Source: a virus
Length of the DNA: 64,000 bases
Direction: 5' to 3' (one strand)
Virus record (IMG/VR): IMGVR_UViG_3300045988_152007
Span: 60,475 to 124,474 of that record
In this document: positions 11,305 to 27,625 of the stretch, piece after piece
Numbering within the stretch: the first letter of the stretch is position 1
How the letters are laid out: each line of letters begins with the position of its first letter
Notes under the pieces: model-generated
Database searches by the model: none
Seen by the model: the letters and a program-made list of their open reading frames with translations, nothing else
What the model was told of the DNA's origin: nothing
Position numbers and translations under genes: made by a program

Positions 11305-11700
11305 TTACCACCCCATCATATTAAGGAACTTATCAATGACTTCATCAGCAGAGCCATTGACCTTGTATACCTTAGCCTTTACTTTCTCAGCAGGCTTCTC
11401 AACCGTCTTACCAAGGTCTTCAATAGCACGACCAATCTTATCAGCCATATCAAAAACCTTCATCAGGTCTTCCGGCTTGACCTCAATGTCATAACCATAA
11501 TAATCCTTAGCAAACTTCACCAGGCCAGTGCAGATAGCCTGTGCATCCGCGGCCATTGTCTGATCTCTCTTGGACTTTTCAGCCTGAGCCTTCAACTCTT
11601 CTGTTCTCTTGGCCTGTGCCTTATTCAGTTCCTCAGTGATGCTCTTGGCAATATCCTCTGCGGATTCACCCTTCATCAGACGATCATAAAAATCATACAT
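11305..11700 (-). CDS. hypothetical protein (K/E-rich, coiled-coil-like)
   Basis: 131-aa ORF with a terminator hairpin at its 3' end. Confidence 0.5.
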   Translation of the reverse strand: MYDFYDRLMKGESAEDIAKSITEELNKAQAKRTEELKAQAEKSKRDQTMAADAQAICTGLVKFAKDYYGYDIEVKPEDLMKVFDMADKIGRAIEDLGKTVEKPAEKVKAKVYKVNGSADEVIDKFLNMMGW

Positions 11701-11860
11701 ATGTATATTACCTCTTTATAAAGATTTCCAGAACTCTTTATTCTGTATATATATTATAAAATATTTTTTTAAAAATTGCAAGTTTCGGGAAAAACATGCG
11801 GCATATGAGAGGCTGCTAGATTGAACAAAAAATTGCCATATGAGGGTTTAAACGGGAATT

Positions 11861-11887
11861 CCGACCAAGTCTTGCCAGACCGGTCGG
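11861..11887. terminator. GC hairpin ccgacc...ggtcgg, possible bidirectional terminator
   Basis: ccgaccaagtcttgccagaccggtcgg, followed on + by a T-rich tract. Confidence 0.35.
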
Positions 11888-11943
11888 CTCCAATTTATTT
11901 ATTTAATTAATTGAAGTATTTTTAATACTTCATCATACCCATA

Positions 11944-12519
11944 CTAATTTATCAATCGAGTTGTTTCCTTTGTTATTTCTTTCCTATTCATTAACATCCA
12001 AGCAGTATTCTCTTTATTAGTTCCCCATCTTAAATTTGATAACCTATTATTCCCTCTTTTTCCATCAATATGGTCTACTGTCAAATTTTGGAAATCAGGG
12101 CTAGGGTGCCAAGATTGTAATACAATTCTATTCATTCCATATCTATGATAATCTAATTCTACATACTAATATCCATCTATTATAGTTCCCTATAAAATTT
12201 TTTTATCATATTTTTTTCTAACCCTTCCTAAATCTGATACTTCGTACAAGTTAGAACAATAAGTAGTTATCCATTTTTCATTTTTTAATTCTTCTTCAGA
12301 TAAATGAGAATAATTATCAAGTTCTCGTTTTTTAGAAAAAAATTTTTTATCTAATATCTATGGTTCTACTTCTTGAATAGTATAATCAGCCGTTTCACCT
12401 TTACCAATTTTTGTAATTAAATACCCTTTAGCTAAATTTTTAGAGCAGAGCAAGGGAAAATTGGTTTCTACCATTCCAACTGTTGTATTAATATATTTTG
12501 CTAATTCATATTTGTTCAT
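11944..12519 (-). CDS. HNH homing endonuclease, TAG-recoded (3 in-frame TAG)
   Basis: ATG at 12519-12517 after AAAAGGAGG. N-terminal NLYEVSDLGRVR motif. C-terminal HNH VDHIDGKRGNNRLSNLRWGTNKEN. The in-frame TAG at + 12166-12168 was verified codon by codon. Confidence 0.6.
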
Positions 12520-12628
12520 AATTTTTACCTCCTTTTACATAATACTATAAAATTCGGGAAAAATCAATTTTCGTAAAATGTCCGAATTTTTTTTCGGAAA
12601 ATTTACAATTATCAAATTAAATCAAAAT

Positions 12629-12656
12629 TCCGGTCGCGTCAACTGTACGCGACCGG
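12629..12656 (-). terminator. rho-independent terminator (9-bp GC stem)
   Basis: ccggtcgcgtcaactgtacgcgaccgg, with a U-tract on the minus strand. Confidence 0.55.
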
Positions 12657-12720
12657 TTGAAATTACCATCTGTTCCAATATTTTCCTTGGAAAAATTTTC
12701 CAATTATGATTCCAAAAAGG

Positions 12721-12750
12721 ATGGAAGATGTTTCCATCTTCCATCTATTT
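12721..12750 (-). terminator. hairpin terminator at gene end
   Basis: gatggaagatg...catcttccatc, followed by ctttttgg on the minus strand. Confidence 0.4.
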
Positions 12751-13107
12751 CCTTGGGCGCATCAGGGTCAGCCGGTATTTAATTCCATTGTAAGTAAATT
12801 CCATTTCTCGTTCTGGATTTGCAATGGTAATATTACCCAAATCCAAATCGGGGTAGGCATCTTCCAAGGAACTTTCCAAATACTGGATTAGTTCCCTTTT
12901 ATCTCCATCAGGTTTTCGCTCCCGCCTTACATTTTCCACTTTCTTCCGGTCGGCACGTCTTGCCTTTTTTGCTCCTGCTTCAAGCTCCGGCGGCAACTCA
13001 AACAGCTTTTCGCCCCTATCAATTCGCTTGTCCATTTCCAAAACCTGTTTGGCTTCTTCAATGGAAATTTTAAGCGAATTTGCCAACTTTTCAGCGGTCA
13101 TTGACAT
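12745..13107 (-). CDS. small basic protein, paralog of 15024..15422
   Basis: 120 aa. Shared pattern IEEA..VL..DK.IDR..K...L.PE and C-terminal Y.LTL..R. Confidence 0.5.
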   Translation of the reverse strand: MSMTAEKLANSLKISIEEAKQVLEMDKRIDRGEKLFELPPELEAGAKKARRADRKKVENVRRERKPDGDKRELIQYLESSLEDAYPDLDLGNITIANPEREMEFTYNGIKYRLTLMRPRK

Positions 13108-13199
13108 TTTACCGTCCTATTAGAATTTTATTTACTAGGAACTAGCTAGAACTAGCTGGGAGAAGTAAGGGGAGCTTTCTCCCCTTACTTCTTTTTCGC

Positions 13200-13577
13200 T
13201 CATGCCTTGGTGTAGTAGACACGCCGCTTTTCAGTGGTCTTAATCACCCTGCCATCTTCCACAAGAGTTCTGAGCAGATTCGCCATTCTCTGCGTGGACA
13301 TATCGTTCTCATGGTTGGCATTGAAATCTGCCACAACCGGAAGCTCCTTGAGCAGTTCGGCAATGGAGTAAGTCCGGTTGGCTTCCATCTCCTGATAAAT
13401 CCGCTCCACCATCGTGGCGTTCTCGACCTGCTGTGCAGTCTCCTTCTTTTCGCCGGACTTCTTGGAAACAGAAGCAAGCAGGGCTTCCAGCTTCTCACGA
13501 ACATCAGACGCGAGGACGATGTTCTCATTGTTCAGAACGGTGTTCAGAGCCTGAGCATAGGTAATCTTCTTTTCCAT
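13200..13577 (-). CDS. winged-helix-like protein, paralog of 15469..15855
   Basis: Start moved to ATG 13577 (AGAAAGGAATTGATAATTATG). C-terminus SIAELLKELP...VIKTTEKRRVYYTKA is near-identical to the paralog. Confidence 0.5.
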   Translation of the reverse strand: MEKKITYAQALNTVLNNENIVLASDVREKLEALLASVSKKSGEKKETAQQVENATMVERIYQEMEANRTYSIAELLKELPVVADFNANHENDMSTQRMANLLRTLVEDGRVIKTTEKRRVYYTKA

Positions 13578-13648
13578 AATTATCAATTCCTTTCTAGCGG
13601 TAGGTCGCAACCCTTATTTGTTTTGTGTTCCTCTCTTGGAACAATTAT

Positions 13649-13677
13649 ATTGTATCACAAACCTTTTGATTTGTCAA
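13649..13677 (-). promoter_or_regulatory. sigma-A-type promoter TTGACA-17-TGnTACAAT
   Basis: Minus-strand read: TTGACAaatcaaaaggtttgtgaTACAAT. Confidence 0.5.
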
Positions 13678-13802
13678 TACCTTAATTGAATTTTCCACGA
13701 TTTTTTTTCGGCTGACATTTTATCGCGGAACGCTGGAAGTAATTGTCAGAATGGCAATTTCAATACCGTAGCTATGATAATTTTGGGAGAGTTGGGAGCT
13801 TT

Positions 13803-14660
13803 TTACAGCTCCCAATCACTGTCAAATCTTCCCAACTTCTTGTAGGGGAAATATTCAATGCCCATTTCAAACTTGTGCTTGGTCTTTGCTCCAATAAGGG
13901 CGAACAGCATAGACTCAATAATTGCGTCCTCTAATGCAGTATGACTTTCTTCAAAATCTTCCTGCTGGAAACAATAGGCAAATGCCTTTTCTGCGTTAGT
14001 CGGATAATATTTGCCGCTTGCGGTTCTCCACTCATTATCATAGCACATCTGTTTATATTCAGGATTATTCAACAGGTGTTCACAAGACAGACCCCACAAG
14101 TCAAACAGCGGATACGTCTTGCCATGGAAGCGGAAAACATCCGGTTCAAACTCTTTCTGCGAATGGGGCTTGCTTCCGTGGGCGATTGCTTCACATCTAT
14201 CATTCTGATATGCTTCCCACTCAAAGAAATCAGGGGCATAGAGCTTGGAAACATACAGGTCAGTGAATGGAATAGCTTTCTTAAAGTCAAACATACTGTT
14301 ATATGCTCCAACAGCTACAACAGCGTCCAAATCTTCAATCAGTTCATTGACTGCGGTATTCCAATCCGTCAGCTTGATTTCTCCGGCTTTCAGACGCTCC
14401 AAATAAATCGGACGCTTACTTGCATAATATGCAGTATTGAAAACTGCGGGAACACTGAAAATTTCAGAAATAAGGTAGGACGCACGCTTGTAAACATTGC
14501 CCCGAATATCCACAATCTGCCATCCCAAATCATAAATCAGCGGCTTGGCGATTGCGACATCTTTTTTCTGGTTTGCATTAAACTTTGCGGCATAAGGAAG
14601 TGTCGCAGTTTCACAATCCAGAATCAGGTAATACTTTCGACGCTTATCAAGTTTAGTCAT
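13803..14660 (-). CDS. DEDDh (DnaQ-like) 3'-5' exonuclease
   Basis: 285 aa. Exo I YLILDCETATL, Exo II YNSMFDF, Exo III HTALEDA. Confidence 0.65.
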   Translation of the reverse strand: MTKLDKRRKYYLILDCETATLPYAAKFNANQKKDVAIAKPLIYDLGWQIVDIRGNVYKRASYLISEIFSVPAVFNTAYYASKRPIYLERLKAGEIKLTDWNTAVNELIEDLDAVVAVGAYNSMFDFKKAIPFTDLYVSKLYAPDFFEWEAYQNDRCEAIAHGSKPHSQKEFEPDVFRFHGKTYPLFDLWGLSCEHLLNNPEYKQMCYDNEWRTASGKYYPTNAEKAFAYCFQQEDFEESHTALEDAIIESMLFALIGAKTKHKFEMGIEYFPYKKLGRFDSDWEL

Positions 14661-14900
14661 AGGGTTTCCATCCTTTTAATAATGTCAATCAGGGTTTGCC
14701 ATCGCTCCCTCATTGCTCTTATATATTATCACACCTTGCCCAAAATGTCAAGAAGAATATTTATTCATTTTCAATGAATATTTATGCACGCTTTAACACT
14801 TTAATGTAGTAAAGTGCGGCACTTTAAGGATTTAATACTTTAATCAAATGAAGCAGAGTTTTGGTAAAAAAATTGGTAAAACTGGTAAATATTGGAAATT

Positions 14901-14927
14901 CTGCCCGGCTAGGTCGTGGCCGGGCAG
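14901..14927 (-). terminator. rho-independent terminator
   Basis: ctgcccggctaggtcgtggccgggcag, with a T-rich tract on the minus strand. Confidence 0.55.
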
Positions 14928-15023
14928 CCCAAATGTCAATAGATAAAAATGCACAAAAAATCCTTAAAAATTCATTAAATTATACAAAAATGCTGGAAAA
15001 ATTTTCATTTTCCAGCATTTTCT

Positions 15024-15422
15024 TTAAGTTTTTGATGCTCTCTTTTGTATCAGGGTCAATTCGTAGCGGTTGCCGCCACTTGTAAACATGATTGTACGCT
15101 CTTTATTTGTGATTTCTTCATCAATCACTTCAAAATCTGCCGTTTCTGTCAAATATTTTGACAAACCGGCAATAATCGCACCTTTAATTTCATTAGGCTT
15201 ACGCGGGCGATAGACATTGCTTTTCTTAACTGTATGCTCTTTGACATTAGCAAGTTTCATTGCTTGCTTATGTTCTTCTGGACTTAAATCAAAATCAACC
15301 TTCTGATTGCGGTCAATAGCTTTGTCGGCGTCCAGAATGTCAACTGCTTCATCAATCGAACATTCCAGCTTGTCAACAAGATTATCGACTTTTGCCCATT
15401 CCTTTTCAGTCAACTCTCTCAT
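15024..15422 (-). CDS. small basic protein, paralog of 12745..13107
   Basis: 132 aa. IDEAVDILDADKAIDRNQK...GGNRYELTLIQKR. Confidence 0.5.
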   Translation of the reverse strand: MRELTEKEWAKVDNLVDKLECSIDEAVDILDADKAIDRNQKVDFDLSPEEHKQAMKLANVKEHTVKKSNVYRPRKPNEIKGAIIAGLSKYLTETADFEVIDEEITNKERTIMFTSGGNRYELTLIQKRASKT

Positions 15423-15468
15423 AGGCTCTCCTTAAATAGTGGGGCGGATTTCTCCGCCCCTTGGTTTA

Positions 15469-15855
15469 TCACGCCTTAGTGTAGAACACTCTGCGTTTCT
15501 CGGTGGTCTTAATGACCTTGCCACCATCGACCAGCGGCTTCAACAGGCTTGCGAGCTTCTGAACCGACAGTTCAGTTTCGTGGTTGGTGTTCCAGTCATT
15601 GACCATCGGAAGCTCCTTCATCAGCTCTGCAACGCTGTACTTACGCTCGAATGCCATCTGCTCATAGATTGCATCAGAGTAGGCGGCGTTTTCTTCCTGC
15701 TCCTTGGCCTGCTTCTTGTTTTCCTTCTTGTTGTCCAGCAGTTCAATCTGGTGATTGATGAAATCAATCAGGTCAGTGTCTGCATCATGCTGGGCGAGGA
15801 AGTCAGAAACAGTAGTGAACATTTCCTTGCGGGTGGGGGCTTTAATCTTTTCCAT
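15469..15855 (-). CDS. winged-helix-like protein, paralog of 13200..13577
   Basis: 128 aa. ...SVAELMKELP...VIKTTEKRRVFYTKA. RBS GAAAGGATTGATACC-ATG. Confidence 0.5.
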   Translation of the reverse strand: MEKIKAPTRKEMFTTVSDFLAQHDADTDLIDFINHQIELLDNKKENKKQAKEQEENAAYSDAIYEQMAFERKYSVAELMKELPMVNDWNTNHETELSVQKLASLLKPLVDGGKVIKTTEKRRVFYTKA

Positions 15856-15904
15856 GGTATCAATCCTTTCTGGTTTTTAAGTGTTTCCTTCACTTGTTGA
15901 CTCA

Positions 15905-15933
15905 ATTATAACACATCAGGTACTATTTGTCAA
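15905..15933 (-). promoter_or_regulatory. sigma-A-type promoter TTGACA-17-TATAAT
   Basis: TTGACAaatagtacctgatgtgtTATAAT. Confidence 0.5.
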
Positions 15934-16035
15934 GAGGGAATTTTATTTATTTTTGAAATTTTTTCGGATTTCAAACCGTGATGCTAACTTAATAGCAATA
16001 GGTTTTTCTCTAACCGTTCCCTCTTGACATTATAG

Positions 16036-16064
16036 AGTATATCACATTTCAGGATTTTTGTCTA
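16036..16064 (-). promoter_or_regulatory. promoter TAGACA-17-TGnTATACT; part of a 130-bp cassette repeated at about 20770-20900
   Basis: TAGACAaaaatcctgaaatgtgaTATACT. The same element recurs upstream of the 19663..20727 gene. Confidence 0.45.
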
Positions 16065-16123
16065 TTGGCAAGATGCACAAAATTTGCATGAAAAAATTGT
16101 GCAAAATGCTAAAAAATTAAAAT

Positions 16124-16152
16124 GCCGCCCGGTGTGCAGGACATCGGGCGGC
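16124..16152 (-). terminator. rho-independent terminator
   Basis: gccgcccggtgtgcaggacatcgggcggc. Confidence 0.55.
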
Positions 16153-16173
16153 TCAAATGAACCGCCCAATTTT

Positions 16174-16584
16174 TTAGGAATTTTCATCCAAACCGCAGGC
16201 AATTTCCAGAAGATTACAGATATTCAAAATATCATAAATTTCTGGCTGTTCAAAATCATCATCATCTTCCCGCCACTCCCAGCAAATGCAACCGCAGTAT
16301 TCACCATTGGCATTCAATGGATAGTAATACCAGCCATTGTCAATTCTTGATGCTTCTCTCAAATTTTTCGGAAACCAACAATTCTTTGGTTCAGTATTAT
16401 AGCTTGCAACAGGTGTGCCGTCTGCACCATAAATTGCAACCGGCATTTCATTTCTTTTGAACCAAGCAATAATAACCTTAATAAGAAATTCCATTTTACC
16501 CCTCCACCAGATTTTCCTTGATAAATTCATCATCTTCATAGAAGAACTCGCCCCATGAAAATTTACAAATCCAAAGGGCTTCAT
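16174..16584 (-). CDS. hypothetical protein (Cys/Trp-rich)
   Basis: 136-aa ORF. The true start may be the internal MEFLIK. Confidence 0.4.
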   Translation of the reverse strand: MKPFGFVNFHGASSSMKMMNLSRKIWWRGKMEFLIKVIIAWFKRNEMPVAIYGADGTPVASYNTEPKNCWFPKNLREASRIDNGWYYYPLNANGEYCGCICWEWREDDDDFEQPEIYDILNICNLLEIACGLDENS

Positions 16585-16641
16585 AATGGTCCCACTGGAC
16601 CGCTTGGGCGATGTAACCGCCCTTTCTGAACTTCTTCCCTT

Positions 16642-16917
16642 TCATTCGTTAAAATCCTTCTTTCCATCAAGAATTGCCTCAATCTCCGAAGTGGTCAGGC
16701 AGTCAATCTTTTCTTCAATCTCATGGAGAATATCTCCATCATCTCCGCAGATTTCATCGGTGATGTTCAGCCATTCATCATAGATGTGGAGCAGAACAAA
16801 ATCGCCCGACTCGATTATTGCACCACAACAACCGCAGATAATTTCATCTCTGTCCTGATTCCAGATACCCGCCTGAACAGTTCCCTCGTTATCCATGAAA
16901 ATAACCTGATAATTCAT
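16642..16917 (-). CDS. hypothetical Cys-rich protein
   Basis: 91 aa with CGCCG and CGDDG motifs. RBS AAAGGAAATGATACA-ATG. Confidence 0.45.
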   Translation of the reverse strand: MNYQVIFMDNEGTVQAGIWNQDRDEIICGCCGAIIESGDFVLLHIYDEWLNITDEICGDDGDILHEIEEKIDCLTTSEIEAILDGKKDFNE

Positions 16918-16947
16918 TGTATCATTTCCTTTCCTTTTGATAAATCA

Positions 16948-16977
16948 ATTATATCACAGGTCAAGGGGCTTTGTCAA
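16948..16977 (-). promoter_or_regulatory. sigma-A-type promoter TTGACA-18-TATAAT
   Basis: TTGACAaagccccttgacctgtgaTATAAT. Confidence 0.45.
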
Positions 16978-17384
16978 GCCCCTTGATTAAATTTCTTGCC
17001 AATTTCCTGAATATCTTCAAGTACTTCTTCATAAGACCGCCACTCGCCATAGTGGTATTCAGGGTCATAATACCACAGACCATAGTGGTCAATCAATCCC
17101 ATGACAATTTTAATGGGAACTTCATAGCCCATTTCATCAAAATAATCATTGATGAATTGTGCCCAAGCGTAAGAATGAATTTCAACAGCTCCAATTTCAT
17201 CACATTCAGGATAATCAAAACTATTGATTTCTTTACCAAGGACATTGAACATTTTTATTGGTTCGCAATTTTCAGTTTTACACAGATCTTCGTATCTGCA
17301 TTTCCATTCATGATGAATACATTCCGCTTCATCGTCGAACACCTGCCCGCAAAAGTCGCATTCATAGGTCGTAATTTCAGTCAT
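16974..17384 (-). CDS. zinc-finger protein
   Basis: Start at ATG 17384 after GGAATTGATAATC. N-terminal CDFCG...CIHHEWKC. Confidence 0.45.
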   Translation of the reverse strand: MTEITTYECDFCGQVFDDEAECIHHEWKCRYEDLCKTENCEPIKMFNVLGKEINSFDYPECDEIGAVEIHSYAWAQFINDYFDEMGYEVPIKIVMGLIDHYGLWYYDPEYHYGEWRSYEEVLEDIQEIGKKFNQGA

Positions 17385-17415
17385 GATTATCAATTCCTTT
17401 CCTTTTGGTACTATT

Positions 17416-17444
17416 ATTATATCAAATTTTTTTTAATTTGTCAA
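17416..17444 (-). promoter_or_regulatory. sigma-A-type promoter TTGACA-17-TATAAT
   Basis: TTGACAaattaaaaaaaatttgaTATAAT. Confidence 0.5.
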
Positions 17445-17493
17445 GCCGGTTGGGAATTTTTTTTTATAATTTTTTTCCCAGCCGGCTTGTTTT

Positions 17494-18131: not shown

Positions 18132-18160
18132 GATATCAATTCCTTTCTTTTGATAAATCT

Positions 18161-18786: not shown

Positions 18787-18957
18787 TGTTCATTCTCCTT
18801 TAACCAATCAATAATTTTTTCACCACATTCAATGCAGTCAATGCCTTGGATATCTTCATTATCTCGGCATTTGAACATCAGAGGACAACAAGCACAATCA
18901 TCAAATGTCTCGACCCATTGCTCAATGCAGTATTTAAGTTTTTCGTCAGAAGTCATT
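18784..18957 (-). CDS. small Cys-rich protein (57 aa)
   Basis: MTSDEKLKYCIEQWVETFDDCACCPLMFKCRDNEDIQGIDCIECGEKIIDWLKENEQ. Confidence 0.3.
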
Positions 18958-19076
18958 AGGTATTCCCTCCCTTAACCTTGTACCAATAGTATAACAGGTA
19001 TCGGGAGAAAAGTCAACTGTCATTTTGCACAAAATTTGGGGTAAAAAATTGTGCAATGTGCCAAAAATCTAAAAAT

Positions 19077-19159
19077 CCTCGCGGCTGGACCGTAGCCGCG
19101 AGGCTCAAAAAAATAACACAAGGGACTTATTTTGTTAAGCCCCTTGTGTTATTTTTTTT
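19077..19159. terminator. tandem hairpins; the second is bidirectional with T-runs on both strands
   Basis: cctcgcggctggaccgtagccgcgagg and aacacaaggg...cccttgtgtt, followed by attttttttt. Confidence 0.55.
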
Positions 19160-19607
19160 AATTCTCAATTACAGTGCCAAGGTAGCGAGCAATCATCATC
19201 ACTTCACAGCTCATGTCTTGTGAATCGCAAACTACATAGCCTACGCGGTCACCATCTGCGTCAACCGGGTAAACACCGTAAGTGGCATTGTATTCAAATG
19301 GCTCGTCTTCATCTTCCCATGTCTTCGAGACATAGGACGGAAAGTTTTCCATACCTCGCAATTTTTTATCAGTGTCATAAATTGCAATAGGACGCAAACC
19401 GGAATTTGACGCCATTTTAATAGCAATCTGCAAGGATTCTTCTGCAAATGACCCAAGCGTTGAATACTTCTGAAAACAAACACAGTTATTTTCAATAAAG
19501 ATTTCAAGTGGGTCACCCTCATGAATCCTCAAACTACGGCGAATGTCTTTCGGAATAATTACACGTCCAAGGTCATCAATTCTGCGAACAATGCCAGTTG
19601 CTTTCAT
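19158..19607 (-). CDS. AbrB/SpoVT-type (swapped-hairpin) transcriptional regulator with C-terminal extension
   Basis: N-terminus MKATGIVRRIDDLGRVIIPKDIRRSLRIHEGDPLEIFIE matches the AbrB N-domain. ATG at 19607 after AAAGGAATTGATAAAA. Confidence 0.6.
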   Translation of the reverse strand: MKATGIVRRIDDLGRVIIPKDIRRSLRIHEGDPLEIFIENNCVCFQKYSTLGSFAEESLQIAIKMASNSGLRPIAIYDTDKKLRGMENFPSYVSKTWEDEDEPFEYNATYGVYPVDADGDRVGYVVCDSQDMSCEVMMIARYLGTVIEN

Positions 19608-19637
19608 TTTTATCAATTCCTTTCTTTTGATAGCCCT

Positions 19638-19666
19638 ATTATATCACAATAGGGCTATTTTGTCAA
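19638..19666 (-). promoter_or_regulatory. sigma-A-type promoter TTGACA-17-TGnTATAAT
   Basis: TTGACAaaatagccctattgtgaTATAAT. Confidence 0.5.
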
Positions 19667-20727
19667 GCGTTTTTATTAAAATGTTCAGAAAGATAATTAG
19701 CGTATATTGCTTGGAACTGGAAGCCCAATTCATCAGTTTCCCAATCAACACGATTATTGAAACGTGTCAGATACTGGATGATTTTTCCATCATTATTTAC
19801 TTCGCAAGTGATGTAGGGTTTTTCCGGTTCAGCCTTGTGCCGAATAAAAACAATGTGTGTTTCACGCTTCAATACCTTTGGATAATAGGCACGATAAACA
19901 CAGTTTGACTGATAGTCGGCCTCTGCTTCAAATTCTTTTGCTACCGTTGGCACAAGTACAATAAAATTATTATCTTCAAATGCAAGGTTTGCATTTAACT
20001 GATAGTCTCTGCTTCCTGCTTCAAGAGCAAGGCGTTTTTCCATTTCCATCTGACAAATGGCTAAAAACATATCTTTGTATGTTCTTTCTTTGCCCAATTC
20101 GTTGCAGAGTGTGATATATCTTTCAATGTATTTACTCATAGCATAGAAGCCTTCAAGCAGTTCCCAACATTCATGTTCCATTCGGAACAAAATTTTATCT
20201 GCGTCTTTCAGAATAATTTCATGTACTGCGGGCTTCACATTATTCATCATTCTTAAAATCTGCGGATTGACATTTGAATAACGTACTGCCCGAACAGCAA
20301 CTTCAATTTCATTCCGGCACAGATTTTCAAACTGGCGTTCTTCCAGTGATGCAAGACCTAATTTCAGATATTTAACGCCTTGCTTATCAAGAACATAATG
20401 ATTATAGCTACAGAAATAAGCAATTACACCAAGGATACGCAAATTATATTCTTTGCCGAAGATGCTATAAACAGTTTCTACCATTTCAGTAGACCATTTA
20501 TTAGCATCACTAAAATAAGAGTCATAATCTTTATTTCTTACTACAAAATATCTTGCAAGAAAATTATTATCGGCGTATTCTTTGAGAATCCTTTTTGCTT
20601 CTGGACAAAAATCCTTAACCTTTTTGCCGGTCATACCATAGATACAGCCGTCAGAGAAGTTGAAGCAGGTTGTCTTGCCATTTTCAAGAGTGATGATAAA
20701 CAAGTTCTTATTCTTTTCAATAGTCAT
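19663..20727 (-). CDS. hypothetical protein (354 aa, largest early ORF of unknown function)
   Basis: Long uninterrupted ORF. Its own promoter at 20770-20800 is a copy of the 16036-16064 cassette. Confidence 0.5.
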   Translation of the reverse strand: MTIEKNKNLFIITLENGKTTCFNFSDGCIYGMTGKKVKDFCPEAKRILKEYADNNFLARYFVVRNKDYDSYFSDANKWSTEMVETVYSIFGKEYNLRILGVIAYFCSYNHYVLDKQGVKYLKLGLASLEERQFENLCRNEIEVAVRAVRYSNVNPQILRMMNNVKPAVHEIILKDADKILFRMEHECWELLEGFYAMSKYIERYITLCNELGKERTYKDMFLAICQMEMEKRLALEAGSRDYQLNANLAFEDNNFIVLVPTVAKEFEAEADYQSNCVYRAYYPKVLKRETHIVFIRHKAEPEKPYITCEVNNDGKIIQYLTRFNNRVDWETDELGFQFQAIYANYLSEHFNKNA

Positions 20728-20878
20728 TAGGCTTACCTCTTTCTTATTTTATCTAAACATTTAATTATTATTTCCCTTTGACATTATAGAGTATATCATG
20801 TTTTAGGATTTTTGTCTACTGGCAGAATGCACAAATTTTAGGACAAAAAATTGGTGAAAATGCTGAAAATCTAAAATG

Positions 20879-20905
20879 CCTGCCGCGGCGTTGGTTCGCG
20901 GCAGG
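20879..20905 (-). terminator. rho-independent terminator (ccgcggcgttggNtcgcgg family)
   Basis: cctgccgcggcgttggttcgcggcagg. Confidence 0.5.
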
Positions 20906-20987
20906 CTCAAATGAAAATGTAAATTATTTCCAATAGACAATTAAGAAAAGGGGAATCCAAAATCTGGATTCCCAATTTTTTCAATTC

Positions 20988-21221
20988 TTAAAAAATTTCA
21001 TTTCCTGCCGAAGTATGGACTGTCGCAATGTCATAGCCGCTTTCGCCGATTGTTTCCAGTGCTTTGTCAACTTCTTCCTCGAATTCATCAATGTTATCAT
21101 CGTGATAATCATCCAATTCTTCACAAGTAGGTTCATTGGCCCATCTTTCCATCTTTTTCCACTTATCATCAATTTCTACTATGACAGGAACGCACTTCGT
21201 AATATAAGCTACAACTTTCAT
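20988..21221 (-). CDS. hypothetical acidic protein
   Basis: 77-aa ORF. Confidence 0.4.
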   Translation of the reverse strand: MKVVAYITKCVPVIVEIDDKWKKMERWANEPTCEELDDYHDDNIDEFEEEVDKALETIGESGYDIATVHTSAGNEIF

Positions 21222-21300
21222 TTTTTACCAATCCTTTCAGCCCAAGGCAATCAAAATTTTAATATCTGTTGCTTCTTCAAGTAAAATATCAAGCTGTTCG

Positions 21301-21633
21301 TCATTCATTTGTCGTTTCTTCCTTTTTTACCCAATTGATAATTTTTGTATAAGATTGCAGTCCAAACATCAATTTCTTCATATCCAGAATAAAAAGGTCA
21401 GCATCTCGTTCTGTGCGAAACTCTAATGCATTATTATAATATAATCCTCTTTTATCAACACCTGAATACTTAACAATAATATTTTTAGGAATCATCATTT
21501 TTGTTTCTCCCCTCAAATTTCCAATCAATAGTCTTGATAATTCGGTTAACATCCATTCTATTTTTAATTTTGCCAATAAAGCGGTTAGCTTCTTCTTCTG
21601 TGTCAAAAAGCAGTTCCTCAAAATAGGACACAT
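21301..21633 (-). CDS. hypothetical protein
   Basis: 110-aa ORF. Confidence 0.4.
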   Translation of the reverse strand: MCPILRNCFLTQKKKLTALLAKLKIEWMLTELSRLLIGNLRGETKMMIPKNIIVKYSGVDKRGLYYNNALEFRTERDADLFILDMKKLMFGLQSYTKIINWVKKEETTNE

Positions 21634-21668
21634 TCCAACAATTTACACCAGCATAATAAACTATAATT

Positions 21669-21881
21669 TTAGTCTCCATCATCGTCTCCCCAAATAGCAA
21701 CAGCTAAGGTATAACAATCATAACGTAAATCAGATTGTATCTTGAATAACTTATCGCTCAATTCTTCTGCTTGTGTAAAATCATAAGGATTTGAGATATC
21801 CTTTCTGCTAAGGTACACTTTTCCAGACAATTTTTCAATCTTATTTGCCAAGTCTGTAAGTTCTTTAAGAATATCATTCAT
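21669..21881 (-). CDS. hypothetical protein
   Basis: 70-aa ORF. Confidence 0.4.
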   Translation of the reverse strand: MNDILKELTDLANKIEKLSGKVYLSRKDISNPYDFTQAEELSDKLFKIQSDLRYDCYTLAVAIWGDDDGD

Positions 21882-21905
21882 TTCATTTTCCCCCTATGGG
21901 CTGGA

Positions 21906-22379
21906 TTATTCCAGTCCATTCAAAATTTCTTTCAGCACATCAAGGATGTTTGTGGTCGTGGGGTCGATTGCTCCGCCCAAGTCCCAATCTCTGCGGACTC
22001 TTGCATCATCATCAAAAATCAGGGCTTCTTCATCATCAGCAAGTCTTGCGGCTTCAATCTTATGCTTCGGCGTCCCATAGGCTACACATCGCAAACTGTC
22101 AAATGGAAAACCATATTCTTTCAGCCAAGCTCTCTTTGCTTTTCTGACTTCATCATCATACTGCTTGTTCGGCTCTTTTGACAGCCAAGTGATAACCGCA
22201 ACATTGATACCGCAATTCTGCAAGCTACGGAGTAGACAGGCAAGTTCTGCCATATCAACCAGCGGTTCGGCGGTCTGATAAGGTGTAGGGTCATAGGCTC
22301 GAATCTTATCAAGCCAATCTTCAACCCCATAGAGGTCAACCAGAGTTCCATCAAGATCGAAGCACAATTCCTTAATCAT
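21906..22379 (-). CDS. HAD-superfamily hydrolase, 5'(3')-deoxyribonucleotidase-like
   Basis: Motif I FDLDGTLVD and motif IV LIFDDD. RBS GAGAAAGGAAATGATAAA-ATG. Promoter at 22413..22441. Confidence 0.55.
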   Translation of the reverse strand: MIKELCFDLDGTLVDLYGVEDWLDKIRAYDPTPYQTAEPLVDMAELACLLRSLQNCGINVAVITWLSKEPNKQYDDEVRKAKRAWLKEYGFPFDSLRCVAYGTPKHKIEAARLADDEEALIFDDDARVRRDWDLGGAIDPTTTNILDVLKEILNGLE

Positions 22380-22412
22380 TTTATCATTTCCTTTCTCTTT
22401 TGGAGTATCTTT

Positions 22413-22441
22413 ATTATATCAGATACAAGCGGATTTGTCAA
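22413..22441 (-). promoter_or_regulatory. sigma-A-type promoter TTGACA-17-TATAAT
   Basis: TTGACAaatccgcttgtatctgaTATAAT. Confidence 0.5.
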
Positions 22442-22450
22442 GTGTTTTTT

Positions 22451-22843
22451 TCAAACTAATTTGATATTTTTATAGTTTTCAATAGCCCAAGCACTTGCGA
22501 ATGGCATAATTGACATATCTTTTACACCATTATTTACACTGATTTGGATATTTTTCCCATGGGCATAAGCATACCCGATTTCCCAAGCTGTTCCAGAATC
22601 AGAGTATAGACCATCATATACAGCAAATAGAATATCACATTCTTGAATTGCGGCAACATCCATTTTGAAAACTTCCCTTGCCCAATCTTCCTGCGACATA
22701 TCCCAAGCATTCGGGACAGTATGTTCTTGCGGAACAAATACATCATACCCAAGCCGCCGGAAACCTGCCGCATATGAATCAATTCTTGATTTTGTCTCAG
22801 GGCGGAAGAACGCTCCAGCCATGTAAATTTTCATTTTTATCAT
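22451..22843 (-). CDS. nucleoside 2-deoxyribosyltransferase (NDT)-like protein
   Basis: KIYMAGAFFRPE ... DSGTAWEIGYAYAHGK matches the NDT family. Start moved to ATG 22843 (AAAGGAAAGGAA-ATG), 22 nt downstream of the promoter -10. Confidence 0.6.
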   Translation of the reverse strand: MIKMKIYMAGAFFRPETKSRIDSYAAGFRRLGYDVFVPQEHTVPNAWDMSQEDWAREVFKMDVAAIQECDILFAVYDGLYSDSGTAWEIGYAYAHGKNIQISVNNGVKDMSIMPFASAWAIENYKNIKLV

Positions 22844-22864
22844 TTCCTTTCCTTTTGTATCCTT

Positions 22865-22893
22865 ATTATAGCACAGGGCATACCAGAAGTCAA
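22865..22893 (-). promoter_or_regulatory. sigma-A-type promoter TTGACT-17-TATAAT
   Basis: TTGACTtctggtatgccctgtgcTATAAT. Confidence 0.5.
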
Positions 22894-23001
22894 GCATAAA
22901 ATATTCGTCAAATTACACAAACATTTTGGGAAAATTTTCCAAGGGCTGGGCTGGAAGGATTTGGAAAACTTTTTTACGTTAGCACTTTAACTCGCGAAAT
23001 T

Positions 23002-23028
23002 CCAGCCGCGGCGTTGGATCGCGGCTGG
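23002..23028 (-). terminator. rho-independent terminator (same hairpin family)
   Basis: ccagccgcggcgttggatcgcggctgg. Confidence 0.5.
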
Positions 23029-23211
23029 CTCAAATTCCCCTTCCAAATTATGGGATTGCCAAATTTGCCGCATTTGATTTTTTGACTGGAAAATTATAGA
23101 ATTGAAACAGAAATAAAAATTATTTTTTTTATATAAAAATTATATTATTTTTTTTTATAATTTTCAAAATAGAATTTCCTCCCAAGATATGGGAGGAAAT
23201 TCAAATGGAAA

Positions 23212-23424: not shown

Positions 23425-23430
23425 TTTTTA

Positions 23431-23658
23431 TCACTCCTTAACATATAATGTAGCATCTACGGCGTAGACTTTTGTATCCTCAGCAAAACAATCAAGTTCT
23501 CCAGTAGATAAATCAATCGAATTGATTTCATCACCGTCATTATCTACGCATTCAGTTTTTATATAAACTGTATCATAGGATGGACATTTGAATACAGTTC
23601 CAATATCCAGAGCTGCGAAGTGGATAACCTGTCTGGGCTTTTCATACTCGATTTTCAT
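23431..23658 (-). CDS. hypothetical protein
   Basis: 75-aa ORF. Confidence 0.4.
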   Translation of the reverse strand: MKIEYEKPRQVIHFAALDIGTVFKCPSYDTVYIKTECVDNDGDEINSIDLSTGELDCFAEDTKVYAVDATLYVKE

Positions 23659-23660
23659 TT

Positions 23661-23984
23661 TTATTTTTCCTTTCTATGTTTGATTAGCTTTTTCGCCATG
23701 TTCTTTTGAATTGCGTCATATACTACTTTCGGCATTTTCATCTGCCCGTTTCGTCTGAAAATTGCAGTTGCTTTGTCCATGTTGACATAATACAAAGTGA
23801 TTAGAAATTCCATCCGGCTATCTGTAATCAAAATCACTCCCGTGCTTGTAATAATCTGCCATTTGTCCTCATATTTGAATTTTGCCACAGGTTCGCCAAG
23901 TCCGGTGTTCATTTGAATTTCAACATATCTGTCCAAGCGGTCTTCCTTGAAATGTTTACTGACTTGCAATTTTGTAATATCCAT
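23661..23984 (-). CDS. hypothetical protein
   Basis: 107 aa. RBS AAGGAGGAAATTAAG-ATG, preceded by a GC stem-loop. Confidence 0.4.
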   Translation of the reverse strand: MDITKLQVSKHFKEDRLDRYVEIQMNTGLGEPVAKFKYEDKWQIITSTGVILITDSRMEFLITLYYVNMDKATAIFRRNGQMKMPKVVYDAIQKNMAKKLIKHRKEK

Positions 23985-24005
23985 CTTAATTTCCTCCTTT
24001 TGGAA

Positions 24006-24023
24006 GAGGGCTTTTTAGCCCTC
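24006..24023 (-). repeat. conserved GC stem-loop GAGGGCTTTTtAGCCCTC immediately 5' of an RBS
   Basis: Related copies at 25585..25604 and 26337..26358. Each sits just upstream of CCAATAGAAAGGA / AAGGAGG and an ATG. Confidence 0.4.
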
Positions 24024-24224
24024 GTTCCTATCATCTTCAATCCAACGGTTCAGAAACTGTTCGCAAGATTCATCCGGATTATCATTAACCGCTTTCTCAC
24101 AAGCCTTTTGGAAAGGACAGGCTTCACAAGAAGGAAGGTGTTTAATAAGTTCAATCAGCATATCCTTATCAAGGACGTTATTTACAAATTCAGACATTTT
24201 CATTTTCATTTCCCCCTTAATCAA
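24015..24224 (-). CDS. hypothetical Cys-containing protein
   Basis: 69-aa ORF. Confidence 0.4.
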   Translation of the reverse strand: MIKGEMKMKMSEFVNNVLDKDMLIELIKHLPSCEACPFQKACEKAVNDNPDESCEQFLNRWIEDDRNEG

Positions 24225-24357
24225 TATAAGTAGACATTAGACAAACCCATTCACGGCTGTTATACTTCGGGCTTCTCTCCCTAGCGTCTGCTAGGGAGTA
24301 GCCATATGCAGTTTCAATTTTTTTTGTGTTGACATTGTACATCTCGAACTCATACAT
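24217..24357 (-). CDS. small hypothetical protein (46 aa)
   Basis: ATG after GAGGAGGG. MYEFEMYNVNTKK... Confidence 0.35.
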   Translation of the reverse strand: MYEFEMYNVNTKKIETAYGYSLADARERSPKYNSREWVCLMSTYID

Positions 24358-24361
24358 GATG

Positions 24362-24544
24362 TTAGCCCTCCTCATCCTCGATGCAACCGCAGACTGTGTA
24401 CCACAGACCCATATACTCGTCATAATTGCGGGCATATGTGTTGCAGAAATCGTTCATAGATTCAGCACTAAAATCATGGTCATTATCAATCCATTCGTTC
24501 AGCAGTTCAGCGATTTTTTCAGTAGTCATTTTTTGTATCTCCAT
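24362..24544 (-). CDS. small hypothetical protein (about 60 aa)
   Basis: MEIQKMTTEKIAELLNEW... The ORF-track N-terminus overlaps the promoter -10 and was trimmed. Confidence 0.35.
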   Translation of the reverse strand: MEIQKMTTEKIAELLNEWIDNDHDFSAESMNDFCNTYARNYDEYMGLWYTVCGCIEDEEG

Positions 24545-24918
24545 TTCATTTTTATCTGTTCCCTTGGAACAATTATATATTACCACACCCTATAGCAAAT
24601 GTCAATAGGAAAGTCAAATTTTTTTATTCGTCAATATGCACAAAGATTCTGGAAATATTTGGTATGGAATTATATACCATAAGCTGGTAGGATATGGGAA
24701 ATGGAATGTAATGTCAAATATGGTAGAATTTGGCTGGAAATATTCGGAATTGATATTAAATGGAAAATGCGGGGCGTGGCGAGCTTGCTGTGGATATATC
24801 AATTTCGCCACGCCCCGGCGAGGCAATTTATTTAATTAAAGTGATAATGAATTAAAGAAGATGATTTGAAAAATGGGCTGGAAACTGTTTCCAATTTCCA
24901 GCCCTTGGAATTTCAGGA

Positions 24919-27618: not shown

Positions 27619-27625
27619 TGTACTC

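What the first reader, a model, noticed from the sequence alone, without database searches (positions are those of the whole stretch)
11700..24620. Highly modular early region: one consensus promoter, one stereotyped RBS and one GC hairpin terminator per gene, including a duplicated 130-bp intergenic cassette
At least ten minus-strand genes are each preceded by TTGACA-17-TGnTA(T/C)AAT about 20-40 nt upstream of a conserved GAAAGGAA(T/A)TGATA-N2-4-ATG translation start. Each is followed by a 8-10 bp GC stem terminator. Several terminators share the core ccgcggcgttggNtcgcgg and the trailing ggctcaaa. The segment about 16010-16160 (TAGACA/TATACT promoter, TTTGTCTAnTGGCA, GCACAAA box, terminator) is repeated at about 20760-20910, and partially at about 19000-19100 and about 22900-23030. 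This looks like a cassette architecture in which genes are shuffled as promoter-gene-terminator units.
Basis: seen in the sequence. Interest (0 to 1): 0.5.

Follow-up and report, generated by a model that had tools for sequence, protein, structure and literature searches.

The report
Shuffling promoter-terminator cassettes, phage early region
The early genes of this stop-codon-recoded gut phage are organised as short units, each with a near-perfect host-type promoter, a stereotyped ribosome-binding site and hairpin terminators, and comparison with relatives shows that these repeated control sequences are the points where genes are cut, pasted and swapped.

Summary
Between 11.7 and 24.6 kb the minus strand carries 13 sigma-A-type promoters with an extended -10. 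Seven exact copies of GAAAGGAAWTGATA lie 29-33 nt after the -10. There are 16 stable intergenic hairpins and three copies of a ~145-nt terminator-box-promoter cassette. These serve about 29 genes in units of 1-6 genes, not one set per gene.

The window is a TAG-recoded (code 15) siphovirus distantly related to phAss-1 and Enterococcus EF1-like phages. The region is its TAG-free, higher-GC block, which I infer to be early.

The same strand-specific promoter array occurs in 65 related metagenomic loci (549 versus 62 hits), in phAss-1 and in cultured Enterococcus phage H1.

Close relatives (81-99% identity) differ by transposition, loss or insertion of whole units. Their breakpoints are enriched in the regulatory repeats. 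One relative carries chimeric cassettes: the B 5' half joined to the C 3' half.

So the shuffling interpretation is supported. The closest known system is the PeSL cassettes of T4-like phages, and this is an analogous variant in a new lineage.

The cassette's TTTGTGCA box with a TAGACA -35 is a distinct, widespread and unexplained promoter class.

The parts
24577..24605 (-). Promoter P24605 (TTGACA-17-TGgTAATAT) for a 6-gene operon (24529-23212). A TTTGTGCA box lies at 24637-24644.
22865..22893 (-). Promoter P22893 (TTGACT-17-TGcTATAAT). It drives the nucleoside 2-deoxyribosyltransferase gene 22834-22451.
22413..22441 (-). Promoter P22441 (12/12 consensus, TG-extended). It drives the operon 22379-20988. 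A 6-bp stem overlaps the -10.
20771..20915 (-). Cassette B. It holds a terminator hairpin (20881-20907), an inverted TTTGTGCA box pair and the TAGACA-17-TGaTATACT promoter (20790-20818). It drives the PcfJ-like gene 20727-19663.
19638..19666 (-). Promoter P19666 (12/12 consensus). Its -35 contains the TGA stop of the PcfJ-like gene, and a 13-bp stem-loop overlaps the -10 (z -5.1). It drives the SpoVT/AbrB-like gene 19607-19158.
18988..19114 (-). Cassette C. It holds a terminator hairpin (19077-19103), the box pair and the TTGACT-17-TGtTATACT promoter (18988-19016). It drives genes 18956-18194.
18161..18189 (-). Promoter P18189 (TTGACA-17-TGaTACAAT). It drives genes 18131-17494.
17416..17486 (-). 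Hairpin (17452-17486) abutting promoter P17444 (12/12 consensus). It drives gene 17384-16974.
16948..16997 (-). Composite terminator/promoter P16977. An 11-bp GC stem encloses part of the TTGACA -35 in its loop (z -6.8). The -35 contains the TGA stop of gene 17384-16974. It drives genes 16917-16174.
16017..16161 (-). Cassette A. It holds a terminator hairpin (16125-16153), the inverted TTTGTGCA box pair and the TAGACA-17-TGaTATACT promoter (16036-16064). No ORF follows it.
15928..16029 (-). 102-nt ORF-free promoter-to-promoter unit. It is closed by a 13-bp stem (UGUCAAGAGGGAA/UUCCCUCUUGACA) whose 3' arm contains the -35 of P15933.
15905..15933 (-). Promoter P15933 (12/12 consensus). A 49-nt leader with an AAGTG-AAGGAAA-CACTT hairpin follows. 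It drives the two-gene module 15855-15024.
14723..14751 (-). Promoter P14751 (TTGACA-17-TGaTAATAT). It drives the exonuclease-like gene 14660-13803. The leader holds a conserved hairpin at 14691-14710.
13649..13677 (-). Promoter P13677 (TTGACA-17-TGaTACAAT). It drives the paralogous two-gene module 13577-12745.
22997..23035 (-). Cassette-type terminator, 90% identical to 20874-20912. It stands alone about 140 nt after terminator 23172-23202.
13581..22851 (-). Seven exact copies of the RBS motif GAAAGGAAWTGATA, at 13581, 16920, 17388, 18134, 19611, 22382 and 22838 (each 14 nt). The ATG follows 2-4 nt later.
12630..12656 (-). Last GC hairpin terminator of the block (10 bp, 8 GC, followed by AATTTTGATTT). 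It is preceded by terminator 12720-12745.
11899..12519 (-). HNH/NUMOD4 endonuclease gene with 4 in-frame TAG codons and 27% GC. It is absent from L003, L004 and L006, so it is a mobile insertion and not part of the cassette system.

Best explanation
This is the host-RNA-polymerase-dependent block, presumably early or host-takeover, of a TAG-recoded siphovirus that probably infects Clostridia. Its roughly 29 small, mostly unknown genes sit in about 13 short transcription units.

Each unit starts with a near-consensus sigma-A promoter with an extended -10 (TTGACA-17-TGnTATAAT). A 22-26-nt leader with a strong, stereotyped Shine-Dalgarno region follows. Most units end in one or two intrinsic-terminator-like hairpins, some of which overlap the next promoter.

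Because every unit brings its own signals, gene order is free. The repeated regulatory DNA consists of a promoter plus RBS of about 60 nt and a terminator-box-promoter cassette of about 145 nt. These repeats serve as portable homology for recombination that deletes, inserts, transposes and re-promotes genes.

A second promoter class (the TTTGTGCA box abutting a weak TAGACA or TTGACT -35, with a TATACT -10) is probably factor-dependent.

Shown here: the motifs, their strand bias and positions; their conservation across the phage family; the unit rearrangements and chimeric cassettes; and the absence of in-frame TAG codons from the block.

Inferred: transcription by host sigma-A RNA polymerase, early timing, terminator function, recombination as the mechanism rather than independent gain and loss, and factor dependence of the box promoters.
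For: MOTIFS AND STATISTICS.

CODE AND COMPOSITION. Late plus-strand ORFs carry 243 in-frame TAG codons in about 10,700 codons. Real genes of the 12.6-28.9 kb minus-strand block carry none. GC is 38-43% there against 27-32% in the late genes.

PHAGE IDENTITY. Terminase and portal families match. The major capsid protein is 49% identical to phAss-1 and 41% to Enterococcus EF1-like phages. phAss-1 is a published code-15 phage (PMC10607447).

FAMILY-WIDE ARRAY. 65 related loci carry 549 same-strand against 62 opposite-strand promoter matches, where shuffles give 0-3. Median spacing is 887 nt. The array is also present in cultured Enterococcus phage H1 (12 promoters in 7.3 kb) and in phAss-1 (21 in 17 kb). 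In several promoters of both, a GGGG-TTGACAA-CCCC hairpin holds the -35 in its loop.

SHUFFLING. Gene-order maps, breakpoint enrichment (40 of 88 ends in 15.6% of the region), small ORFs inserted between a promoter and its gene with the RBS motif or an SD-like sequence on both sides, and chimeric cassettes.

BOX PROMOTER CLASS. The -35 is TAGACA in 8 of 18 box promoters against 1 of 816 without a box. Box-to-promoter spacings of 9-10, 20, 30-31 and 41-42 nt show helical phasing.

NOT AN ASSEMBLY ARTEFACT. The early/late junction is colinear in 4 relatives at 84-92% identity.
Against: There are no expression data, so promoter, terminator and timing assignments rest on sequence alone.

Several cassette hairpins have an interrupted U-tract (AUUUUAGAUUUU) and were missed by the terminator scan.

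Breakpoint counts are not independent, because L003 and L004 are near-duplicates and ancestry is shared. Intergenic DNA also diverges faster, which inflates block ends there.

34 of the 88 ends lie at plain gene boundaries without a promoter, so ordinary gene-boundary mosaicism contributes too.

The exact RBS motif is confined to the closest relatives L002-L007. That fits recent homogenisation but also adaptation to one host.

The host is unknown.
Confidence: 0.75

Rival explanations
1. Convergence only. The promoters, RBSs and hairpins look alike because each is independently selected to match the host's optimal signals. They are not related by descent and play no role in recombination.
For: The most conserved columns are the functional ones: the -35, TG, -10 and AGGA (alignment A2). 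Promoter spacers are mostly dissimilar. Distant relatives use other leader sequences.
Against: Cassettes A, B and C are 70-78% identical over 97-145 nt, including stretches with no known signal. P18189 and P19666 share 86% identity over 56 nt, spacer included (D2). Chimeric cassettes in L003 have a crossover in the shared AATTTTTT. The RBS motif flanks the ORF inserted at L003 6541-6717 on both sides.
Confidence: 0.1
2. The ~145-nt cassette is primarily a regulatory switch. It would be an operator for a host or phage DNA-binding protein plus a weak promoter. Its repetition reflects co-regulation of a delayed-early gene set, and recombination at it is incidental.
For: The inverted TTTGTGCA box pair abuts the -35. 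TAGACA and TATACT are almost exclusive to box promoters. Spacing shows helical phasing. The same 22-nt composite occurs in more than 118 IMG/VR stretches, including unrelated ~13-kb phages, and in more than 120 genome stretches, mostly Clostridia. A reversed control pattern gives 0 hits. The phage encodes two AbrB/SpoVT-type proteins.
Against: This reading is compatible with the main explanation rather than exclusive of it. No binding factor has been identified. No window protein is shared with the 13-kb phages. The cassette's terminator half is not needed for an operator.
Confidence: 0.45
3. The cassettes are selfish, MITE-like or homing repeats that spread by their own transposition machinery. 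They would be neither promoters nor recombination substrates.
For: The copies are dispersed. The ~100-nt units are bounded by inverted repeats. A mobile HNH gene lies nearby.
Against: All copies lie on one strand, in intergenic positions at a fixed distance upstream of start codons. No target-site duplications were seen. No transposase is present in the block. The HNH gene is absent from relatives that keep the cassettes.
Confidence: 0.04
4. The 12.6-28.9 kb block is foreign DNA (a satellite, plasmid fragment or assembly chimera). This would explain its higher GC and standard genetic code.
For: GC is 38-43% against 27-32% in the rest of the window. The block has no in-frame TAG codons.
Against: Both junctions are colinear in several relatives: 23-32 kb in L067, L069, L070 and L074 at 84-92% identity, and 12.6-9 kb in L003, L004 and L005. 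The same block sits next to the same genes in 100-190-kb contigs. Per PMC10607447, suppressed stop codons in recoded phages are characteristic mainly of late genes.
Confidence: 0.02

Closest known systems
PeSLs (promoter-early stem-loops) of T4-like myoviruses RB49/phi1, PST/T4 and nt-1/KVP40 (Arbiol et al. 2010, PMC2839356; Comeau et al. 2014, PMC4122927)
   Same: Both are ~100-nt composite repeats made of a near-consensus sigma-70-type early promoter, a stem-loop acting as terminator or attenuator, and the SD and start codon of a small gene. In both, the stem-loop may lie upstream of the promoter or overlap the -35 or the -10. Both are concentrated in plastic regions full of ORFans. In both, indels between close relatives coincide with the repeats, and recombination between copies deletes or moves the flanked genes. 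The consensus is lineage-specific in both.
   Different: There is no sequence homology to PeSLs. The hosts are Firmicutes and the phages are ~135-kb siphoviruses with TAG recoding. The promoters have an extended -10. The stereotyped RBS is itself a recombination joint. A larger 145-nt cassette carries a palindromic box and a second promoter class. Mini-circles, which were demonstrated for PeSLs, were not tested here.
Host-takeover module of Bacillus phage SPO1 (24-26 small genes in about 12 operons with strong sigma-A early promoters and strong RBSs; from my own knowledge of Stewart et al. 1998; module mentioned in PMC6873191, PMC10531801)
   Same: Both are dense clusters of small, mostly unknown genes in a Firmicutes phage. 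Each short operon has a strong sigma-A promoter and an unusually strong, stereotyped RBS. Both are transcribed by host polymerase before phage-directed transcription takes over.
   Different: The SPO1 module lies in the terminal redundancy of a myovirus. Repeat-mediated shuffling has not been described for it. No homologous proteins were detected here.
Morons of lambdoid phages (a gene with its own promoter and terminator inserted between conserved genes; from my own knowledge of Juhala/Hendrix 2000)
   Same: Both are autonomous promoter-gene-terminator units whose presence or absence differs between related genomes.
   Different: Morons are isolated insertions, typically expressed from prophages. 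Here the whole block is built of such units, they share homologous control DNA, and the phage shows no lysogeny module in the window.
phAss-1 and other code-15 gut phages (Babkin et al. 2023, PMC10607447)
   Same: TAG is read as sense in structural genes. The major capsid protein is 49% identical. The same promoter array is present in the phAss-1 genome.
   Different: The paper does not mention promoters or terminators (0 occurrences). No suppressor tRNA lies in this 64-kb window. Nucleotide similarity is too low for megablast.

Membership tests
PeSL-type mobile regulatory cassettes | A repeated motif containing a near-consensus sigma-70/sigma-A -35 and -10 at 17-nt spacing | tested here: met
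   13 sites in 11.7-24.6 kb. Five match 12 of 12 hexamer positions and all have TG at -15/-14.
PeSL-type mobile regulatory cassettes | A stable stem-loop upstream of, or overlapping, the promoter that can terminate upstream transcription | tested here: met
   16 hairpins fold at -15 to -27 kcal/mol. Stems overlap the -35 at P16977 and the -10 at P19666 and P22441. Terminator activity itself was not tested.
PeSL-type mobile regulatory cassettes | An SD sequence and the start codon of a downstream (ORFan) gene at the 3' end | tested here: met
   The ATG lies 29-33 nt after the -10 in 7 units, with GAAAGGAAWTGATA in between. Most products have no family match.
PeSL-type mobile regulatory cassettes | Indels and rearrangements between close relatives coincide with the motifs, and recombinant (chimeric) motifs exist | tested here: met
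PeSL-type mobile regulatory cassettes | Excision as encapsidated mini-circles | not testable with these tools
   This needs outward-facing PCR or read-level analysis of phage DNA.
PeSL-type mobile regulatory cassettes | Membership of the T4-like myovirus lineage, or sequence homology to described PeSLs | tested here: not met
   The phage is related to phAss-1, EF1 and SPbeta-like siphoviruses. The motif flanks are unrelated. It is therefore an analogue, not a member.
Code-15 (TAG to Gln) recoded phages | Many in-frame TAG codons in conserved late genes, with ORFs restored when TAG is read as sense | tested here: met
   ORFs of at least 200 codons rise from 10 to 29 when TAG is read as sense. 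One late ORF of 3107 aa holds 108 TAG codons. Terminase and portal match their families after recoding.
Code-15 (TAG to Gln) recoded phages | A phage-encoded suppressor tRNA(CUA) | tested here: not met
   ARAGORN finds no tRNA in the 64-kb window. The rest of the genome is not available, so this does not exclude one.
SPO1-like host-takeover module | A cluster of small genes in short operons with strong sigma-A promoters and strong RBSs | tested here: met
SPO1-like host-takeover module | Location in the terminal redundancy, and demonstrated host shut-off functions | not testable with these tools
   The genome ends are unknown and no functional data exist.

The most novel reading that the evidence does not exclude
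The cassette core is TTTGTGCA-N3-TGnCA-N-T(A/T)GAC, usually paired with an inverted copy 16-24 nt upstream and followed by TGnTATACT. It would be an undescribed promoter/operator class read by a conserved factor of Clostridia or by a still unknown phage regulator. It would be shared by very different gut phages: this ~135-kb recoded family, ~13-kb phages that carry it in both terminal inverted repeats, and prophage-like loci. It would mark a factor-dependent (delayed-early) regulon inside the shuffling early region.
Probability: 0.35. Interest if true: 0.7.

Novelty: new variant of a known kind. Interest (0 to 1): 0.5.

Why it matters
It extends the PeSL principle from T4-like phages of Gram-negative bacteria to a large, mostly uncultured family of Firmicutes gut phages that recode TAG. 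In that principle, repeated promoter-terminator cassettes both express and shuffle accessory genes.

It shows how such phages can exchange early or host-takeover genes without breaking regulation.

It gives concrete promoter, RBS and terminator parts for Clostridia and Enterococcus hosts.

It also defines the standard-code, host-transcribed gene set that must act before TAG suppression starts.

The architecture is also present in cultured Enterococcus phage H1, so the predictions can be tested directly.

Tried and rejected
- First promoter pattern: the gap was mis-set and it found nothing. It was corrected.
- Rfam at E<=1: no credible family anywhere in the window.
- ARAGORN: no tRNA in the window. 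The inverted-repeat-bounded units are not tRNAs. Distant relatives carry tRNA-Lys in the same block.
- Megablast of the region against GenBank phages: no match.
- SD presented in a TATCAA/TTGATA hairpin loop: a complement to the TGATA is visible in only 3 of 7 short leaders (P18189 and P19666 fully, P16977 over 5 bp), so I rejected it as a general feature.
- A small ORF inside the inverted-repeat-bounded units: not conserved between copies.
- Paralog 13577-13200: no significant PDB sequence match. The AlphaFold model had pLDDT 57, so I ran no fold search. A winged-helix guess remains untested.
- Literature search for the TTTGTGCA box: only primer sequences.
- TTTGTGCA count in the window alone: not significant (5 against 3.1 expected). 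Its significance comes from position, strand and the collection scans.
- Known operator consensuses recalled from memory (Spo0A, Rex, CRP/FNR, LexA, CtsR, DnaA box): none fits the box.
- Single-sequence folding of the 260-nt leader: not significant (z -1.5). The case for it rests on conservation.

Full report
WHAT THE WINDOW IS

Under the standard code only 10 ORFs reach 200 codons. Reading TAG as sense gives 29, including plus-strand ORFs of 3107, 1142 and 1098 aa between 29 and 64 kb. After recoding, these ORFs match the terminase large subunit and portal families. The major capsid protein is 49% identical to phage phAss-1, 58% to an unannotated fecal phage fragment and 41% to Enterococcus EF1-like phages.

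phAss-1 is a published 136-kb code-15 gut phage whose host is predicted to belong to the Clostridia (PMC10607447). That paper does not mention promoters or terminators.

The finding's region belongs to a minus-strand block (12.6-28.9 kb) with 38-43% GC, against 27-32% for the late genes. Its real genes contain no in-frame TAG, whereas the late ORFs contain 243 in about 10,700 codons. Both junctions of the block are colinear in several relatives, so it is not an assembly artefact or a foreign island.

CHECK OF THE OBSERVATION

Promoters. Within 11.7-24.6 kb, nine sites match TTGAC[AT]-N13-15-TGnTAnA[AC]T. Two more have TAGACA/TATACT and two have TTGACA/TAATAT, giving 13, all on the minus strand. 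A tenth strict site lies at 27654. In the whole 64-kb window the strict pattern occurs only twice on the plus strand, and on the minus strand nowhere outside 13.6-27.7 kb. A pattern of this stringency is expected about 0.01 times by chance.

RBS. GAAAGGAAWTGATA occurs seven times exactly, all on the minus strand. In seven units the ATG lies 29-33 nt after the -10, so the leaders would be only about 22-26 nt long.

Hairpins. Sixteen intergenic hairpins fold at -15 to -27 kcal/mol. Terminator-like sites number 38 against 12.9 expected.

Cassette. The 145-nt cassette at 16017-16161 is repeated at 20771-20915 (77% identity) and at 18988-19084 (70-78%). Its terminator part recurs at 22997-23035 with 90% identity.

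What is overstated. About 29 genes share the 13 promoters. Units hold 1-6 genes. Three units have no terminator. In two cases the TGA stop of a gene lies inside the TTGACA of the next promoter.

ANATOMY OF THE CASSETTE

Alignment A1 shows the following order:
- TTTGAGCC;
- a GC hairpin whose stem sequence varies;
- ATTTTAGATTTT;
- (A)GCAnnnTGCACAA;
- a 16-nt spacer;
- TTTGTGCA-N3-TGnCA-N-T(A/T)GACA;
- 17 nt containing TG;
- TATACT.

It is therefore a terminator, a palindromic box pair abutting the -35, and a weak-core promoter. Cassette B drives a PcfJ-like gene and cassette C drives a three-gene operon. Cassette A drives no ORF, only a 102-nt unit that ends at the next promoter.

Several consensus promoters are themselves composite. 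At P16977 an 11-bp stem holds part of the -35 in its loop (z -6.8). At P19666 a 13-bp stem overlaps the -10 (z -5.1).

RELATIVES

The exonuclease-like protein (14660-13803) retrieved 65 IMG/VR loci at 38-99% identity, from contigs of up to 190 kb. Together they hold 549 strict promoter matches on the gene strand against 62 on the other, where shuffles give 0-3. Median spacing is 887 nt.

The exact RBS motif is confined to the six closest loci. Other lineages have their own stereotyped flanks:
- L012 carries 20 copies of the palindrome TAGACGT-N2-4-ACGTCTA, placed 9-10, 19-20, 29-31 or 40 nt before the -35.
- L036, L043 and L054 carry an AT-rich inverted repeat plus CTTAAC before TTGACA, and a covarying leader hairpin with an AAGGAAAA loop.

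Published genomes show the same array. Enterococcus phage H1 has 12 promoters in 7.3 kb and phAss-1 has 21 in 17 kb. In several promoters of both, a GGGG-TTGACAA-CCCC hairpin places the -35 in the loop.

EVIDENCE FOR SHUFFLING

Unit transposition and loss. In L002-L007 (81-99% protein identity, 70-95% DNA identity in shared blocks) gene order differs by whole units. The PcfJ-like unit follows cassette B in the window and cassette A in L002, and is absent from L003-L007. The SpoVT/AbrB-like unit precedes gene 18956 in the window but follows gene 18786 in L002, L003 and L004. The 18131 unit is missing in L002. Gene 18956 changes neighbours in L005.

Chimeric cassettes. L003 3915-4090 is identical in pattern to cassette B up to AATTTTTT and to cassette C after it. 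This is the product expected if recombination between B and C deleted the PcfJ-like and AbrB-like units. L003 5630-5800 joins the cassette C 5' half to an A/B-type 3' half and now drives gene 18131, which in the window has the consensus promoter P18189.

Insertions at the RBS. Relatives carry extra ORFs of 53-66 aa inserted exactly between a promoter and its gene. At L003 6541-6717 GAAAGGAATTGATA flanks the insert on both sides; the other inserts have SD-like sequences on both sides.

Breakpoint statistics. Of 88 synteny-block ends, 45% fall in promoter/cassette-to-ATG intervals (15.6% of the region) and 16% fall deep inside coding sequence (70% of the region). The binomial p is about 4e-11. 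The counts are not independent, and intergenic DNA diverges faster. Another 34 ends lie at plain gene boundaries, so ordinary gene-boundary mosaicism also operates.

MOST LIKELY MECHANISM

After injection the host sigma-A holoenzyme would start at all consensus promoters at once. Short leaders with a strong SD would give high translation in the standard code, before any TAG suppression. Hairpins would insulate units, although some units are read through.

Because each unit is autonomous, order is not constrained. The repeated 60-145-nt control sequences then provide homology for deletion, insertion, transposition and promoter swapping. The motifs, their positions, their conservation and the recombinant products are shown here. 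Transcription, timing, terminator activity and the recombination pathway are inferred.

COMPARISON WITH KNOWN SYSTEMS

The closest system is the PeSLs of T4-like phages. These are ~100-bp repeats with a sigma-70 early promoter, a stem-loop in one of five positions relative to the promoter, and an SD and start codon. They are enriched next to ORFans in hyperplastic regions, and recombination between them deletes or moves genes and yields mini-circles (PMC2839356). PeSL consensus differs between lineages (PMC4122927).

All sequence-level features of that definition are met here. Mini-circles could not be tested. Lineage and sequence homology are not met, so this is an analogue. It also has features of its own: an extended -10, the RBS acting as a recombination joint, and a larger terminator-box-promoter cassette.

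From my own knowledge, the SPO1 host-takeover module and lambdoid morons are further analogues.

THE BOX

The TTTGTGCA box is almost exclusive to promoters with a weak core. The -35 is TAGACA in 8 of 18 box promoters against 1 of 816 without a box. The -10 is TATACT in 13 of 18 against 210 of 816. The box lies 9-10, 20, 30-31 or 41-42 nt before the -35.

These include relatives of this phage and many unrelated ~13-kb contigs that carry it about 50 nt from both ends in inverted orientation. It was also found in more than 120 genome stretches, mostly MAGs of Oscillospiraceae, Ruminococcus, Acutalibacteraceae and Lachnospiraceae. Half of those have a -10 at the right spacing. A reversed control pattern gave 0 hits.

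No window protein is shared with the 13-kb phages, and no paper mentions the sequence. I read the box as an operator or upstream element for an unidentified, probably host-encoded factor, marking a second, factor-dependent promoter class. This is inference.

OTHER THINGS SEEN

- The cassette A promoter leads into a 102-nt unit closed by a 13-bp stem whose 3' arm includes the next -35 (z -6.85). Units of the same design but with different interiors occur in at least 10 relatives, and the stem shows compensatory changes.
- A 260-nt ORF-free leader after P27654 is more conserved than the gene it precedes and has no Rfam match.
- A two-gene module is duplicated on both sides of the exonuclease gene.
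- A TAG-recoded HNH endonuclease gene is a mobile insertion.
- Gene 17807-17494 is frameshifted relative to L003 and L005.

VERDICT

The finding is real. Its interpretation is right in substance but overstated in the 'one per gene' form. It is a new variant of a known kind of system.

Noticed in passing
window 29300-64000 (+), 9470-10940 (+), 11899-12519 (-): TAG is read as a sense codon here: 243 in-frame TAG codons in about 10,700 late codons, including 108 in one 3107-aa ORF. The minus-strand blocks at 14-8906 and 12622-28865 are TAG-free and richer in GC. No suppressor tRNA lies in the window.
   Followed up: yes
window 27366-27626 (-): A 260-nt ORF-free leader follows consensus promoter P27654. 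Its 3' ~215 nt are 90-100% identical in L067, L069, L070 and L074, although the downstream protein is only 71-93% identical. It has a long-range GCACCG/CGGUGC helix, two conserved hairpins and 3 compensatory pairs, and no Rfam hit. It is a candidate new structured leader or ncRNA.
   Followed up: partly
window 15928-16029 (-); L002 4059-4157 and 5311-5411; L009, L012, L018, L020, L045: These are ORF-free promoter-to-promoter units of about 75-140 nt. Each is closed by a 9-13-bp stem (GUCAAGAGGG.../...CCCUCUUGAC) whose 3' arm contains the -35 of the next promoter. The interiors are unrelated between copies, the stems covary, and z-scores run from -3 to -7. They are not tRNAs. Their function is unknown.
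   Followed up: partly
window 14950-14957, 16074-16081, 19026-19033, 20828-20835, 24637-24644 (-); L076-L155; L194-L313: The composite of TTTGTGCA box plus -35 is widespread in gut phage contigs. It sits in both terminal inverted repeats of many ~13-kb contigs and in Clostridia MAGs. The binding factor is unknown.
   Followed up: partly
window 11899-12519 (-): An HNH_3/NUMOD4 endonuclease gene with 27% GC and 4 in-frame TAG codons sits inside the otherwise standard-code block. It is absent from L003, L004 and L006 and present at 66% identity in L005. It is probably a homing endonuclease insertion.
   Followed up: partly
window 12745-13577 and 15024-15855 (-): A two-gene module (a 125/128-aa protein ending in KRRV(Y/F)YTKA, then a 120/132-aa protein) is duplicated on both sides of the exonuclease-like gene. 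The first genes are 47% identical. The arrangement is conserved in L002-L007. The structure model was too poor to assign a fold.
   Followed up: partly
window 13597-13613 and 14691-14710 (-): Two leader motifs are conserved: GGGTTGCGACCTACCGC before gene 13577, and the hairpin AGGG-AGCGATGGCAAA-CCCT before the exonuclease gene. Both recur in distant relatives (L009, L012) with compensatory stem changes.
   Followed up: no
window 17494-17807 (-): This membrane/zinc-ribbon-like gene is split by a frameshift near 17722 (GGGGCGGC). The gene is intact (105 aa) in L003 and L005. The cause may be a sequencing error, a pseudogene or programmed frameshifting.
   Followed up: partly
window 27820-28036: The long intergenic region after terminator 28053-28076 holds three iteron-like direct repeats (TCTAAACTCAwTTTCAATTTC..., spacing 38 and 25 nt) and a 19-nt inverted repeat (27820-27838 / 27857-27875).
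   Followed up: no
window 14793, 14832, 22979, 24836, 27852: The motif TTAAAGTGYTAA recurs in the long intergenic regions upstream of P14751, P22893, P24605 and P27765. There are 6 matches against 2.6 expected, which is borderline.
   Followed up: no
window 29086-29197 and 45579-45607: Divergent AT-rich promoters (P29114 on the minus strand, P29169 on the plus strand) mark the early/late boundary. P29169 and P45579 are almost identical (TTGACTTTGmAAAwTTTTTTGTGTTATAAT), which suggests a separate promoter type for the recoded genes.
   Followed up: no
L012 (16.5 kb): This relative has 20 copies of the palindrome TAGACGT-N2-4-ACGTCTA upstream of its early promoters, at 9-10, 19-20, 29-31 or 40 nt from the -35. 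This helical phasing is the same as for the TTTGTGCA box in the window's clade.
   Followed up: partly
L009, L010, L018, L036, L054: Distant relatives carry a tRNA-Lys(UUU) gene with its own consensus promoter inside the early block. The window has none.
   Followed up: no
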